Assembly (NCBI GenBank): GCA_964016885.1
Contig: OZ024743.1
Coordinates: forward strand, 220,162,001-220,226,000
Source of the DNA: Eledone cirrhosa
Lineage: Eukaryota
Length of the DNA: 64,000 nt
Direction of reading: 5' to 3'
Below are positions 1-57,500 of this stretch, piece by piece. A model generated the notes under the pieces. It saw only the letters and a list, made by a program, of their open reading frames with translations, was not told the origin of the DNA and searched no databases. The stretch's first letter is position 1, and every line of letters starts with the position of its first letter. A program made the position numbers and the translations under genes.

Positions 1-430
1 AACTCTTAAGAGTCAATGGCCATCCAAAATCACCGGGAGAGATGACCCCCTTAGCCTTTGTCAAGGCAGAATTCTAGGAGAAGGAAAACTCTGATATAAC
101 ACCTGCAACCCTGATGGTATCCAATGATGTTGACTTGTTCTTTTTGGTAAATATCATCTTGGTTAAGAGAGTGGGACTGGCTTTGTGCAGTGCCTTTTCT
201 CACTATAAAAGCTTCACGGCACAGGCATTGCTTTATATCTGGAGATCTCTCTGCACTTGTCGTCACATGGTACCATGGGCCCAGCACTATGTGTCAATAA
301 TTGTCACAAGTGTAGTGTTTGTACCAGAGTTTTCAAGTCACTGGCTGGACTAAAAAGTCACACTCGTTCAGCGCATCGGTAGGGGTTCACCTACAGTGGC
401 CGTACTCGAAAACGAGTTGGCAGCCACCAT
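1..430 (+). mobile_element. Non-autonomous RTE-related element, copy A (5' part lies outside the window)
   Basis: Near-identical to 6325-6766 and 39855-40300. Contains ctaggagaaggaaaactctgatataacacctg, shared with the RTE 5' UTR at 54655-54705. Ends in gtggccgtactcgaaaacgagttggcagccaccatgtatg followed by a (TATG)-like tail. Confidence 0.8.
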
Positions 431-460
431 GTATGTATATATATGTAGGTTTGTATGCAT

Positions 461-52650: not shown

Positions 52651-54562
52651 AAAGCTTTGGACTATTAAAGAATACGAACTACCAGTAAAGTAATTCTTCT
52701 CTTTTTTTCGCCTAAAGGCGTAACTTGCCTATTTTGTTATGTTCCAATGTGAACTGGAATGAACAAAATCAACCTTAAAAACTCGAAACCGTAGGGATCT
52801 CTAGAGTTTGACTGAGGTGATGGGACTGTTCGTCTTTTTGTTGTTTTTCCCATTGTCTTTGTCCTTTGGAACACCTATTTTGAATTCATATTCTAAAGAC
52901 TTAGTCATGTGGGCTTTTTTTGAAACTATCATATAATAGACATCACATCACCTGGCCTGTTTTCCCCTATTCTCCCTTCTTACCTTTTCTACGCCTCAGT
53001 GTTCTTCTTATTTTTCTACACGTTTGACTACAGATCTTATTATTCTCTTCTGTTACTATTTCTCTCCTTTCTCTACTTTTTACTACTTTGGCTAAGACCA
53101 GGCGCACTCTATATTTATGTAATTTACCCAAGGACATAACTTGTCTGTAACTGTTTTGTTATGTCCGAAGGTGCACTGGAATGAACTTTATCAACTACAA
53201 TGCATCGAAACCATAGTGATTTCCAGAGGTTGACTGAGTAGAAAGGACTGTCCATCTTTCGTTGTTTGTCCCATTGCCTTTGTTCATATATTTTGAATAT
53301 GTATGTACGCATATATATATATACATATATGAGGGAGCTTATATATGTATGAGGGAGCTTATAGATAGGACAACACACGCTGTCTCTTCGTGGGGTAAGT
53401 TTTTAATTAATTTTTGTATTCTGAAACATCAAAATACAACAATTTGTTGGTTATTGGACTCGGGAATGTCACGACAGAAGTTTGTGGAAGTTACACAAAT
53501 ATTTTAGTATATTTTAGCAGAGCAATCCTTATTTATATTTTACATTTACTTACATCTCAATATAACATGGCTAGAATTCAAATTTTGCTAAGAGAAGAAA
53601 ACGGTCAAATGAACTAGATACATCTCACTGTCCACACCACCACAATAACGTCTACACTCTCTCCCCACCATCACATGTCATTACCATACCATACCCTATC
53701 GAGACTAAAGTCATCGACCTGTTGTCAAACTCTCTACTCTCTGATGAATGTATATATATATATGTGTGTGTATGTATATGTGTGTATATACATCACTCAG
53801 TCAAACAACCAGATTTCAACCCCAACATCTACAACAACAACAACACCGGCACTAATGTTTACAGCAACAACAGCTTCAGAATGAACTGAAATGAACATTT
53901 ACAACAATTACAACAACAACAACAACAGCGGCATCAAAACATAAAAAAAGGAAGGGAAAAGAAAAAAGAAAAAAGAAAAAGGGAAGGGGAAAAAAAAAAG
54001 GAGGAAAAAAAAGAAAGGAAAAAAAAAAAAACTCAAAATAACAAAACACACACACACACACACACACACACACACACACACACACACACACACACAACAG
54101 AACAACAACATCAACTGCCACCACCACCACCACCGCCACCGCCGTCGCCATCACCATCACCAGCGACCTTAAGAACAACTTTAATAATAATTTTTCTGCT
54201 TTTGGCACGGATCCAGCGACTGGCCAGCGCATCACTGGTACTCTCTTTTGTTGACTCCGTGGAGAGCCATAACTCTATGCTGTAAAGCAATTATAGTAAT
54301 ACTGGACTGTAATACGATCGGCTTCAACTATACAAACTCTTGAAAGTCAACAGTTGACATAATCTGGTAATCTTGTATCAGTAATGACGGTAATATATAT
54401 ATATATATATGTGTGTGTGTGCGTGTAAGTGAGTAGAGTAGCGTGTGTGTGTGTTTGTTGTGTGTGTGAGTGTTGCTGTGTGCACGCATATGTATGCGTG
54501 TGTGTGTATGTCGTACGTATAAGTGTCAATAAGTAATTTTTTTTTTTTTTTTTTTTTTTTTT

Positions 54563-57500
54563 TGCGCGGGAACATAGAAATAATCGGGCTGGATGCCCGA
54601 TCGCGCAGTTAAACCACTGGGAGTGAAGAACCCCTAGCCCATGTCAGGGTATTCTTCTAGGAGAAGGCATCTCAGGAAACTGGGTTAACTCCGATATAAA
54701 ACCTGCGGCTCAGTAGTTACCGATGATGTTGATCTTTTCTTCTTTTCGGGTTATAGCTACTGTCGCTCAGAGAGTGGGATTGGTTCAGTGCACAGTCTTT
54801 CCTCACTTTAAAAATATTCGTCACGCACAGGCATTGCACGAGTGCATTAATAATTATTAATAGTGTAGTATTATTATTATTATTATTATTATTATTATTA
54901 TTACTATTATTATTACTTTTTTTTTTTTTTTTTTTTTTTTTCCAATTCAATGATGTTCCAGAACAATGTAAACGAGATAATTGCCAATTTGGGTTCTGGA
55001 ACAAAAAGGATCATTGGCAATAAGGGCAGGGGCCCCAAGTTATCACAACCTGGGCCCGCCCGTCATCGTGCCATTGTAATAGAGCCAAACAGGGCATTTA
55101 GTCTTGGCTGCTGGAACGTACGGACGCTGCTTGACAGGGATTCTTTGGAGCGTCCTGAACGAAGGACCGCTCTTGTTGCGAAGGAGCTTCGACGTTACGA
55201 TCTTGACATCGTGGCTTTGTCTGAGACGAGGTTAGCTGGAGATGGTCATCTTACGGAATTTTGTGGAGAATATACATTCTTCTGGAAAGGAAGAGATGAA
55301 GGAACCAGAAGAGAGGCTGGGGTAGGATTTGCTGTTAAGACTGTACTGGTGAATAAATTAGAAGAATTCCCAGTGGGGATTAGTGAGCGTCTTATGTCCA
55401 TGAGAGTTCCGCTGGACAAGGGAAGATATGCTACCCTGGTGAGTGTGTATGCTCCAACTATGAATTCTGTCGATGAAGAAAAACTGTCCTTTTACCATGC
55501 CTTGAAAGGTGTTTTAAGAAATATCCCTCAGGCAGACAAAGTCATCGTGCTTGGTGACTTTAATGCTAGAGTGGGTAGGGATTTTAACACATGGAATGTA
55601 ATCGGAAGGCATGGGGTGGGAAAGTGTAACAGCAATGGTATGCTCTTGCTGCAGATGTGTGAGGAGCTGGATCTGTGTGTTACCAACACCATGTTCCAAC
55701 AAAAGAACAAATTCAAGACCACATGGATGCATCCTGCATCTAAGGAATGGCATCTTTTGGACTACGTCCTAGTCAGGATGCGTGACAGACAGGATGTGCA
55801 GTGTGTTCGTGTTCTTCGTGGAGCTGAGTGCTGGACGGACCACCGCCTGGTACGCGCAAAAGTGAATCTAATCACCAAACGTAAAATCCGGGCTCCTGGT
55901 GTTACCCTGCCCAAAAGATTGAATGCTGCTCGTCTTAAGGATAAAAATGTGAAGAGGACATTGGAAGAAGAGATGCAGGCTGCAGATCTTGGTGAGGATT
56001 GGCCGACCCTTAAAAAGTCGGTTTATGATGTAGGCAGACGTGTTCTGGGATTGGTGCAGAGAAAACATCAGGACTGGTTTAATGAGAAAGATGTGCATAT
56101 AGATGACTTGTTGGCTGATAAGAGGCGCGTTCTGTCACGCTACTTGACGGCAAAACCACAGGAGAGGAATACGTTGCATGAGGAGCTCAGGGATGTAAAA
56201 TCACGTGTTAGGCGGAGTCTTTCTCAGATGAAGGATCAGTGGTGGAGTGAGAAGGCTGGTGAGATACAAACTGCGTCTGATTGCAATAACACAAAGCTGT
56301 TGTACAGTCTCTTGCGTGAGGTTTATGGACCGTCTTCTTCTCTGGTGACACCGATTCGCAGCAGGGATGGCAAAGAACTTCTTCGTGACTCACAGGGAAT
56401 TCTACGAAGGTGGCGAGAGCACTTTGATGATCTTTTGAATCAGCCGTCTGTCGTCAGTGAAGATTTCCTCAATCTCATTCCGGAAAGTCCTGTGAAAGTA
56501 GCTCTCGCAGAACCTCCGACACTTGTGGAGGTTGCAGTGGCTATTTCGAAGCTGAACAGTGGAAGATCTCCAGGTATGGATGGCATACATGCTGAGCTCC
56601 TACAATATGGTGGTGAGAGACTCCTGCAACATCTTCACTCTCTGTTTGGAAGGATATGGGCTAATGAATCCGTGCCTGAGGACTGGAGAGATGCAGTAAT
56701 GGTGGTCTTGTACAAGGGAAAGGGTAACAGGAATGATTGTGGGAACTACAGAGGTATATCATTGCTTTCTGTCGTGGGGAAAGTTTTATGTAGGGTGCTT
56801 CTGGACCGTCTGCTGACACACATTGCAGATTGTGTCCTTCCTGAAAGTCAATCTGGTTTTCGTGTTGGACGCGGCACTACTGATATGATCTTCTCAGCTA
56901 GACAGCTCCAGGAGAAGTGCATTGAACAGGGCTTGGATCTGTATCAGGTTTTTGTCGATCTGACAAAGGCTTTCGATACTGTCAACAGAGATGCATTATG
57001 GAAGGTTCTCCAGAAACTTGGTTGCCCTGATAAGTTCCTTGCTTTAGTTAGGTCTTTCCATGACGACATGAAGGCTTGGGTTAATGTCGGAGGTAACATG
57101 TCGGAGCCTATCTCAGTAAAAAATGGAGTGAAACAGGGGGATATTCCAGCACCGACCCTGTTTGCCATATACTTTGCAATGGTTTTCTGTATTGCATTCA
57201 GGAATTGCGAGCATGGTGTTTACATCCGATATCGAACCTCAGGCAGCATATTTAACATCAGGCGCTTTGCTGCGAAGACAAAAGTATTTACATCAGTCAT
57301 AAGAGACCTCTTGTATGCAGATGATTGCGATCTTGTAGCGCACACAGAGAGTGATATGCAGCACATTTTGAATGTATTTTCTGACGCTTGCACTGCCCTG
57401 GGTTTGACTGTCAGTCTCAAGAAAACCGTCGTCATGTACCAACCTGCACCTGGTAGGCAGTACACTGAACCAAACATCTATGTGTATGGCAAACGACTTG

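What the first reader, a model, noticed from the sequence alone, without database searches (positions are those of the whole stretch)
1..54850. Bipartite non-autonomous element joining RTE 5'-UTR-like sequence to an RTE-like 3' stem-loop and (TATG)n tail
Seen: six copies (1-430, 6158-6766, 6935-7040, 11196-11635, 39692-40300, 40339-40690). The middle aligns with the 5' UTR of the intact RTE at 54630-54837 (ctaggagaagg, actc.gatataa.acctgc, gatgttga, agagagtggga.tgg, ctcact.taaaa, gcacaggcattgc). The 3' end tggccgtactcg-aaaa-cgag-ttggcagccaccatg matches the RTE 3' end tggccatactcg-ataa-cgag-ggggcagccatcatg at 4569 and 6035, keeping the CTCG/CGAG stem. No tRNA A/B boxes are evident in the head. 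Established: RTE LINEs give rise to internally deleted bipartite elements of the Bov-A type. Inference: this is a roughly 610-bp parasite of this or a sister RTE, and the conserved blocks pinpoint the cis-elements for promoter activity and RT recognition.
Basis: partly seen in the sequence, partly recalled or inferred. Interest (0 to 1): 0.7.

Follow-up and report, generated by a model that had tools for sequence, protein, structure and literature searches.

The report
Internally deleted RTE outlives its parent
This is a very abundant 609-base jumping element made by deleting the middle of a now-decayed RTE retrotransposon, a known kind of parasite, and its youngest copies were likely spread by the enzyme of a different, still intact RTE family.

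Summary
Real, and a known kind of element. The 609-bp unit is an internally deleted RTE LINE: nt 1-427 are the whole 5' UTR and nt 428-609 the last 40 codons plus 3' UTR of a ~4.05-kb RTE found elsewhere in this genome (about 97-99% identical in the best copies). The RTE in the window is only a sister (65% DNA, 59% protein identity to the parent). The deletion junction has 16,608 exact genomic matches against 18 for the parent's junction. All 22 near-complete parent copies examined are broken. A young subfamily (about 67 copies, two identical at unrelated sites) exists anyway, while the window's RTE family is young and open, so a switch of helper is likely but not shown. Corrections: (TATG)n is mostly target, not tail (48/48 full-length copies sit behind a purine-pyrimidine microsatellite; upstream and downstream repeat types agree, p=6e-5); 6935-7040 is the second arm of a dimer. 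The 3' stem is kept across five sister families. A conserved, foldable 95-nt 5' head matches no Rfam family.

The parts
6157..6767 (+). Full-length element, young subfamily (7 of 7 diagnostic motifs), first arm of a dimer
6157..6252 (+). Conserved 5' head (~95 nt), predicted three-way junction plus long hairpin; true 5' terminus of the parent RTE
6373..6425 (+). [quoted passage not shown]
6585..6586 (+). Deletion junction; about 3.35-3.45 kb of the parent removed, cut 54 nt before the parent's probable start codon
6586..6706 (+). Last 40 codons of the parent ORF with the terminal C2H2 zinc finger and the stop codon
6734..6767 (+). 3' stem-loop (ACTCG/CGAGT over TGGC/GCCA) and the terminal GCAGCCAYCAT motif
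6768..7041 (+). Microsatellite linker and second arm (from nt 198) of the dimer, here cut short at its 3' side
1..430 (+). 3' part of a full-length old-subfamily copy that starts 164 bp before the window
11195..11640 (-). 5'-truncated copy
39691..40301 (+). Full-length old-subfamily copy
40359..40691 (+). 5'-truncated copy in the (TATG)n tract behind the previous copy
54563..58650 (+). Intact young sister RTE (ORF 54950-58495, 1181 aa: AP endonuclease, RT, C2H2 fingers); candidate present-day helper, not the parent. Its 3' UTR is interrupted at 58650.
4249..6069 (+). Two 5'-truncated older copies of the sister RTE, ending in the shared 3' motif at 4569 and 6035; the young element at 6157 sits in the second one's (TATG)n tract

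Best explanation
The element is a 609-bp internal-deletion derivative of a ~4.05-kb RTE LINE of this genome, which was likely copied by RTE proteins supplied in trans, first by its parent and, for the youngest subfamily, likely by the intact sister RTE seen in the window. Shown: it joins the parent's whole 5' UTR to the parent's last 182 bp at one fixed junction; it outnumbers the parent's junction about 900 to 1; it lies in (TATG)n or (TA)n tracts like both RTE families; the parent copies examined are all broken; a derived subfamily is younger than any parent copy seen. Inferred: the deletion arose once, perhaps by a template jump between two similar sites (GATCTC...CAC...CTTG occurs at both ends of the deletion); the 5' head fixes the RNA start (internal Pol II promoter or self-processing RNA); the 3' stem-loop and GCAGCCAYCAT end are what the RT grips; the terminal CAT/CATG would anneal to a nick in a TA/TATG tract to prime reverse transcription, which explains stacks of copies in each other's flanks and the dimer. 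Odds: internal-deletion origin 0.97; RTE-driven retrotransposition 0.93; late switch to the window's RTE family 0.6.
For: Parent: a pattern asking for the element's zinc finger with a further C-x2-C upstream gave 123 hits, most of the 100 listed with a coding upstream; fetched copies carry nt 1-430 and, 3.3-3.5 kb later, nt 428-609, with RT/endonuclease between; old-subfamily majority vs six parent copies 97.4-99.3% (5' part), vs four 96.7-97.8% (3' part). Counts: 16,608 vs 18 exact junction 22-mers, reversed-pattern controls 0; 26,660 exact 3' 20-mers. Target: 48/48 full-length copies have an RY-microsatellite upstream vs 12.9% of random local positions; upstream/downstream type TA/TA 8, TA/TATG 1, TATG/TA 4, TATG/TATG 26, 4 others left out, Fisher p=6e-5. 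3' stem: 94% of cells paired in 8 sequences of five families, one pair with a two-sided change (G-C to T-A) and one wobble change. Ages: parent 22/22 near-complete copies broken, longest open stretch 863 aa, closest two parent copies 97.6% among 30; young subfamily differs from the old majority at 12 sites on both sides of the junction, is further from the parent than the old one, and has copies with 0-2 differences on different contigs; window RTE family 99.6-99.95% identical over 1961 bp, 19/20 open over the 650 codons fetched; two other sister families looked decayed.
Against: No mobilisation or expression data. Only 58 parent-related loci (some fetched twice) of about 162 candidates were read, and an intact parent could be missing from a one-individual assembly. 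The young subfamily is small (67 matches) and averages 1.0% from its own majority (range 1-11 differences), against 1.8% for 19 unselected old copies and 1.2-4.9% for parent copies, so the age gap rests on its core of about six copies. Young copies and window-RTE copies were picked as best hits, which favours similarity. The search for other helpers used one start-of-ORF pattern and 30 of 146 hits. Covariation of the 3' stem is modest (22/500 shuffles reach the score); the window RTE's own 3' end does not fold better than shuffles (z -0.67) although the element's does (z -3.35). Exact target-site duplications cannot be read inside microsatellites.
Confidence: 0.9

Rival explanations
1. The element was only ever moved by its own parent family; the young subfamily was driven by a late intact parent copy that is unassembled, polymorphic or not among those read.
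For: Old copies (1.8%) and parent copies (1.2-4.9%) overlap in age; one parent copy still has 863 open codons; stringent 3' recognition is common among LINEs (own knowledge; PMC3414825 abstract for R1/R2).
Against: No two of 30 parent RT-region loci exceed 97.6% identity, so no recent parent burst is visible, while element copies reach 100%.
Confidence: 0.35
2. It is a direct deletion derivative of the RTE in the window.
For: 72-75% identity in the 5' UTR and 28/33 at the 3' end.
Against: A family 97-99% identical over both parts exists; the window RTE lineage has its own separate deletion derivative.
Confidence: 0.01
3. It is an ordinary Pol III (tRNA or 5S) SINE with an RTE body and tail.
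For: One loose A-box-like match at nt 101; such SINEs are common, also in cephalopods (PMC5786205).
Against: No tRNA, no B box, no Rfam match at gathering score; the head is the parent LINE's own 5' terminus; internal T runs would hinder Pol III (inference).
Confidence: 0.02
4. The near-identical young copies come from gene conversion or segmental duplication, not from recent retrotransposition.
For: Some parent/element recombinants are visible among the hits.
Against: The flanks of six core copies share only other dispersed repeats and the dimer arm, not contiguous sequence; they lie on five contigs.
Confidence: 0.06

Closest known systems
Bipartite non-autonomous RTE LINEs: Bov-A, RTE-N2_Lch, RTESINE1/2, WALLSI3, MAR4_MD (Kojima 2018, PMC5786205; main text parts 1-4 of 5 read, supplement passages)
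   Same: 5' terminus and 5' UTR of an RTE joined to its 3' end by internal deletion, no small-RNA head, no RT; RTE-N2_Lch is 214 + 70 bp of RTE-4_Lch. Holds the conserved RTE 5' UTR domain (motif GGAGAAGGAAAACTC, 74 occurrences in the supplement).
   Different: Longer (427 + 182 bp), keeps a zinc-finger-coding remnant, sits almost only in TA/TATG microsatellites, and has a subfamily younger than the parent copies seen.
Bov-A2 (dimer of Bov-A; PMC5786205)
   Same: A dimer subfamily propagates as a unit: 12 of 20 young copies carry a fixed microsatellite linker and a second arm from nt 198.
   Different: The second arm is 5'-truncated, and the dimer is a minor subfamily.
IdioSINE2 and other Ceph-SINEs (PMC5786205 supplement passage)
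   Same: IdioSINE2 holds cacgcacaggc and ends with catactcg-acca-cgag, like the 5' block and 3' stem here; OegopSINE holds the CTAGGAGAAGGAAAACTC domain.
   Different: Those have a tRNA head and CORE domain; this element has neither.
R2 SIDEs and R2/R1 hybrid SIDEs (PMC3414825, abstract)
   Same: Short internally deleted elements that keep a structured 5' end and the 3' RT-binding end and insert in a repeated target.
   Different: Different clade; their 5' end is a proven HDV-like ribozyme, here no known ribozyme fold was found.
RTE-2_OV and other octopus RTE families (PMC9115989 passages; PMC13282606 part 1 of 3 and passages)
   Same: Single-ORF RTE with endonuclease, RT, C2H2 finger and a microsatellite-rich 3' UTR, like the window RTE.
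   Different: RTE-2_OV is 1109 aa with ~600-nt UTRs; no sequence match could be shown (4 of 8 supplement files not searched). No non-autonomous derivative is named in the passages read.

Membership tests
Bipartite non-autonomous RTE (Bov-A / RTE-N type) | 5' part is the 5' terminus and UTR of an RTE LINE | tested here: met
   nt 1-430 match parent copies from their first base, 97.4-99.3% in six copies
Bipartite non-autonomous RTE (Bov-A / RTE-N type) | 3' part is the extreme 3' end of the same LINE | tested here: met
   nt 428-609 match the parent's last 182 bp, 96.7-97.8% in four copies
Bipartite non-autonomous RTE (Bov-A / RTE-N type) | No coding capacity for endonuclease or RT | tested here: met
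   six-frame reading shows only a 40-codon zinc-finger remnant
Bipartite non-autonomous RTE (Bov-A / RTE-N type) | Amplified as a unit with one fixed junction | tested here: met
   16,608 exact junction matches, control 0
Bipartite non-autonomous RTE (Bov-A / RTE-N type) | Retrotransposition marks: 5' truncation with intact 3' end | tested here: met
   copies with an intact 3' end start at nt 1 (50) or at scattered internal points
Bipartite non-autonomous RTE (Bov-A / RTE-N type) | Target-site duplication | tested here: inconclusive
   flank repeat types agree on both sides but exact duplications are unreadable in microsatellites
Bipartite non-autonomous RTE (Bov-A / RTE-N type) | Mobilised in trans by RTE protein | not testable with these tools
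   needs a retrotransposition assay
RTE clade (parent and window LINE) | Single ORF with AP endonuclease and RT, no ORF1 | tested here: met
   Pfam PF03372 and PF00078 in both; UTR runs straight into the ORF
RTE clade (parent and window LINE) | RT phylogeny places it in the RTE clade | not tested
   no tree with reference LINEs was built; support is indirect, through the RTE 5' UTR domain
tRNA-derived SINE (SINE2) | tRNA-like head with A and B boxes | tested here: not met
HDV-like ribozyme head | Nested double pseudoknot P1-P2-P3-P1.1-P4 with catalytic C, kept across relatives | tested here: not met
   own relaxed descriptor (recalled fold): hits in 2 of 10 heads, loose and not shared; 9 of 100 shuffles also hit; no Rfam match. 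An atypical variant is not excluded.
Twister or hammerhead ribozyme head | Conserved catalytic core motifs | tested here: not met
   recalled twister motifs absent; a lone CTGATGA in one copy reads CTGATGG in the other window copies; Rfam none
Self-cleaving RNA of any kind | Site-specific cleavage in vitro | not testable with these tools
   needs a co-transcriptional cleavage assay

The most novel reading that the evidence does not exclude
The 95-nt head shared by four sister RTE lineages here and by RTE-like sequence in metagenome contigs of other origin is an undescribed self-cleaving RNA that cuts each unit out of read-through transcripts of microsatellite-stacked copies; together with a shared 3' stem it lets a guild of deletion elements hop between sister RTE enzymes, so that a parasite 900 times more abundant than its parent survives the parent's death.
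Probability: 0.12. Interest if true: 0.7.

Novelty: new member of a known kind. Interest (0 to 1): 0.33.

Why it matters
The class is known, so the finding is not surprising as a kind. Its value is as a clean natural experiment. Parent, deletion product and exact junction are all in one genome; five sister families give variants of the 3' stem; a young intact helper is available for assays; and the young helper family lacks the conserved 5' head and shows ragged 5' extensions instead, which separates the role of the head from that of the rest of the UTR. It also shows an RTE group that targets TA/TATG microsatellites, and tens of thousands of copies (up to roughly 0.5% of the genome by estimate) that automatic annotation would probably file as unclassified SINEs.

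Tried and rejected
First parent pattern failed, one spurious hit: its anchor lay across the junction, and my early reading of a second His-x3-His motif there was a chance product of the join. Protein search with the 47-aa remnant among longer proteins found no candidate (weak evidence). Head pattern: 0 hits in viral and prokaryote collections, 4 in metagenomes (2 distinct sequences). Rfam at E<=10 gave only microsatellite and sub-threshold matches. The single-sequence head does not fold better than shuffles (z -1.05 and -0.32); the alignment fold has 4 of 27 pairs with a two-sided change and a covariation term of +0.45, so the head structure is only weakly supported; one of the six folds (L090) used the wrong strand and was ignored. 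No RNA holder listed; contigs laid show the element in other runs but say nothing on expression or 5' ends. Ruminski et al. 2011 on RTE ribozymes was not held; I rely on passages of PMC6765202 and PMC5786205. Literature searches that found no description of this family or of microsatellite targeting by RTE; Repbase and Dfam were not searchable, so the family may already be catalogued there. Search by sequence in earlier scan notes found nothing.
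Full report
Observation. The middle aligns with the window RTE's 5' UTR at 72.5% over 153 columns (score 94, shuffle maximum 31) and the last 33 bp match 4569 and 6035 at 28/33 (score 41, shuffle maxima 24 and 27). 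That 3' motif ends 18 of 20 young copies of the window RTE family; in the window copy it is displaced about 19 kb past the window end by four tandem 6.08-kb insertions in its (ATT)n tract. No tRNA gene or B box was found.

Abundance. The window lies on contig C4 of a 3.0-Gb genome. An earlier scan note calls it an octopus; I did not test that. The element's 3' 20-mer has 26,660 exact matches and its junction 22-mer 16,608, with reversed-pattern controls at 0. In the 264 kb around the window, 10 of 13 copies with a 3' end carry the exact 20-mer, which suggests roughly 30,000-40,000 copies, many of them truncated.

The parent. A first pattern failed. A second, asking for the element's zinc finger with another C-x2-C 78-90 nt upstream, gave 123 hits, most of the 100 listed sharing a coding upstream unlike the element's. 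Several lay 3.1-3.2 kb from one variant of the endonuclease start motif. Fetched copies are ~4.05-kb elements that begin with nt 1-430 of the element and end with nt 428-609, with endonuclease and RT between. The old-subfamily majority is 97.4-99.3% identical to six parent 5' parts and 96.7-97.8% to four 3' parts; other copies score lower through indels. The deletion removes 3.35-3.45 kb, cuts 54 nt before the probable start codon, and its two ends share GATCTC...CAC...CTTG, which suggests a template jump (inference). The parent's own junction has 18 exact matches, a ratio near 900 to 1. Parent and window RTE are 65% identical in coding DNA and 59% in protein, so the window RTE is a sister.

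Ages and helper. All 22 near-complete parent copies among 58 loci read (some fetched twice) are broken; the longest open stretch is 863 aa. The closest two of 30 RT-region loci are 97.6% identical and copies lie 1.2-4.9% from their majority. Nineteen unselected old element copies average 1.8%. A young subfamily, which includes the copy at 6157, differs from the old majority at 12 sites spread over both sides of the junction and is further from the parent than the old form, so it arose from the element after the deletion. It has about 67 copies; its core copies differ by 0-2 substitutions and lie on different contigs with unrelated flanks. The window RTE family has about 1,500 candidates; 20 best hits are 99.6-100% identical over 1961 bp, the window copy included, and 19 of 20 are open over 650 codons. 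Two other sister families sampled were 93-94% identical among copies with many stops. The simplest reading is that the young subfamily was moved by the window RTE's protein. Against this: best-hit selection, a mean of 1.0% for the whole young set, incomplete sampling of parent loci and of other helpers. I put it at 0.6.

Target, not tail. All 48 full-length copies have a purine-pyrimidine microsatellite upstream (12.9% of random local positions do) and 44 have one downstream (28 of the 48 were best hits). With dimers followed to their end, repeat types agree on both sides: TA/TA 8, TA/TATG 1, TATG/TA 4, TATG/TATG 26, 4 unclassified left out, p=6e-5. Young window-RTE copies end in (TA)n (11) or (TATG)n (7), and parent copies also sit in such tracts. 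The fixed end is GCAGCCAYCAT; the repeat after it mostly follows the site. Some added repeat cannot be excluded, and RTE elements are known to generate microsatellites at their 3' ends (PMC2887409, abstract). This preference explains stacked copies and the dimer: 12 of 20 young and 1 of 25 old copies carry a linker and a second arm from nt 198, as at 6768-7041.

Cis elements. The 3' stem is kept in five sister families: 94% of cells pair, one pair changes on both sides (G-C to T-A), one becomes a wobble, and slid controls fall to 22-49%; 22 of 500 shuffles reach the score, so support is moderate. The element's end folds well (z -3.35), the window RTE's less so (z -0.67). The middle blocks belong to the conserved RTE 5' UTR domain of Kojima 2018. 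The first 95 nt are 87% conserved per column among ten heads from four families and two metagenome sequences that start at the same base. They are predicted to form a three-way junction and a long hairpin, with only 4 of 27 pairs showing two-sided change. HDV-like, twister and hammerhead tests and Rfam were negative. None of 20 young window-RTE copies has this head within 1.1 kb upstream; many carry a shared, variably truncated extension of up to 1.1 kb instead, recalling 5' switching in plant RTEs (bioRxiv 10.1101/2022.11.04.512097, abstract). The head likely defines the 5' end, as a promoter or as a processing site.

Comparison. Kojima 2018 (PMC5786205, parts 1-4 of 5 read) lists RTE as one of four clades that yield bipartite non-autonomous LINEs and names Bov-A, RTE-N2_Lch, RTESINE1/2 and WALLSI3; all testable defining features are met here. 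Ribozymes at RTE 5' ends are known (PMC6765202 and PMC8501958, passages). SINE-LINE competition and mismatch in activity are discussed in PMC6685494 (passages). I found no description of this family in the searches; repeat databases and four supplement files of PMC9115989 were not seen. An earlier scan note on another piece of this genome reaches a similar reading of a 620-letter element; it is not independent evidence.

Verdict. A real, very abundant new member of a known kind, with its parent now identified. The likely helper switch, the microsatellite targeting and the unexplained 5' head lift it a little above routine. Interest 0.33.

Noticed in passing
L031:1745-2372, L077, L083, L047:5580-5930; not in the window: A second bipartite family, the deletion derivative of the window RTE's lineage (head, internal microsatellite, the 54563-54850-type UTR and the RTE 3' end); 3,594 exact junction matches.
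   Followed up: partly
L035:5670-6195, L007:2150-2440, L086, L096, L098, L103: Two more bipartite families with the same head and 3' motif; one matches a further decayed RTE family whose 5' end is in L103 and 3' end in L020/L024. Each sister RTE seems to have made its own parasite.
   Followed up: partly
window 58650-64000 and about 19 kb beyond: A two-ORF LINE (L1/Tx1-like by recalled layout, not tested) inserted in the (ATT)n tract of the RTE 3' UTR as four tandem 6.08-kb copies, 99-100% identical at their starts; another RTE copy (L240) has the same junction sequence.
   Followed up: partly
window 53400-54562: Many young copies of the window RTE share up to 1.1 kb of upstream sequence ending in a T run, often truncated or inverted: a 5' extension that travels with the element in place of the conserved head.
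   Followed up: partly
L077, L083, L093, L104: A chimera of a decayed fourth RTE family followed by the second bipartite family recurs at four loci, so it was copied as a unit.
   Followed up: no
L072-L075: The 5' head and the next ~70 nt occur at 71-74% identity in metagenome contigs with other flanks and no RT nearby, starting at the same base.
   Followed up: partly
window 690-3700 (-), 15490-17740, 38880-39600 (-): Decayed fragments of other LINEs with a C-terminal endonuclease-like region; a short piece of this family often follows copies of the element.
   Followed up: no
window 23423-23601, 23988-24143, 31449-31658, 32638-32838, 43451-43672, 51291-51808: Another dispersed ~190-bp repeat family, 80-95% identical, at least ten copies in the window.
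   Followed up: no
window 26262-27089 and 27929-28757: An 829-bp inverted duplication, 98.8% identical, around an ORF fragment at 27263-27679.
   Followed up: no
G000:C12:17031489-17431132: Seven parent-RTE fragments spaced about 60 kb apart with equal scores, probably a tandem segmental duplication.
   Followed up: no
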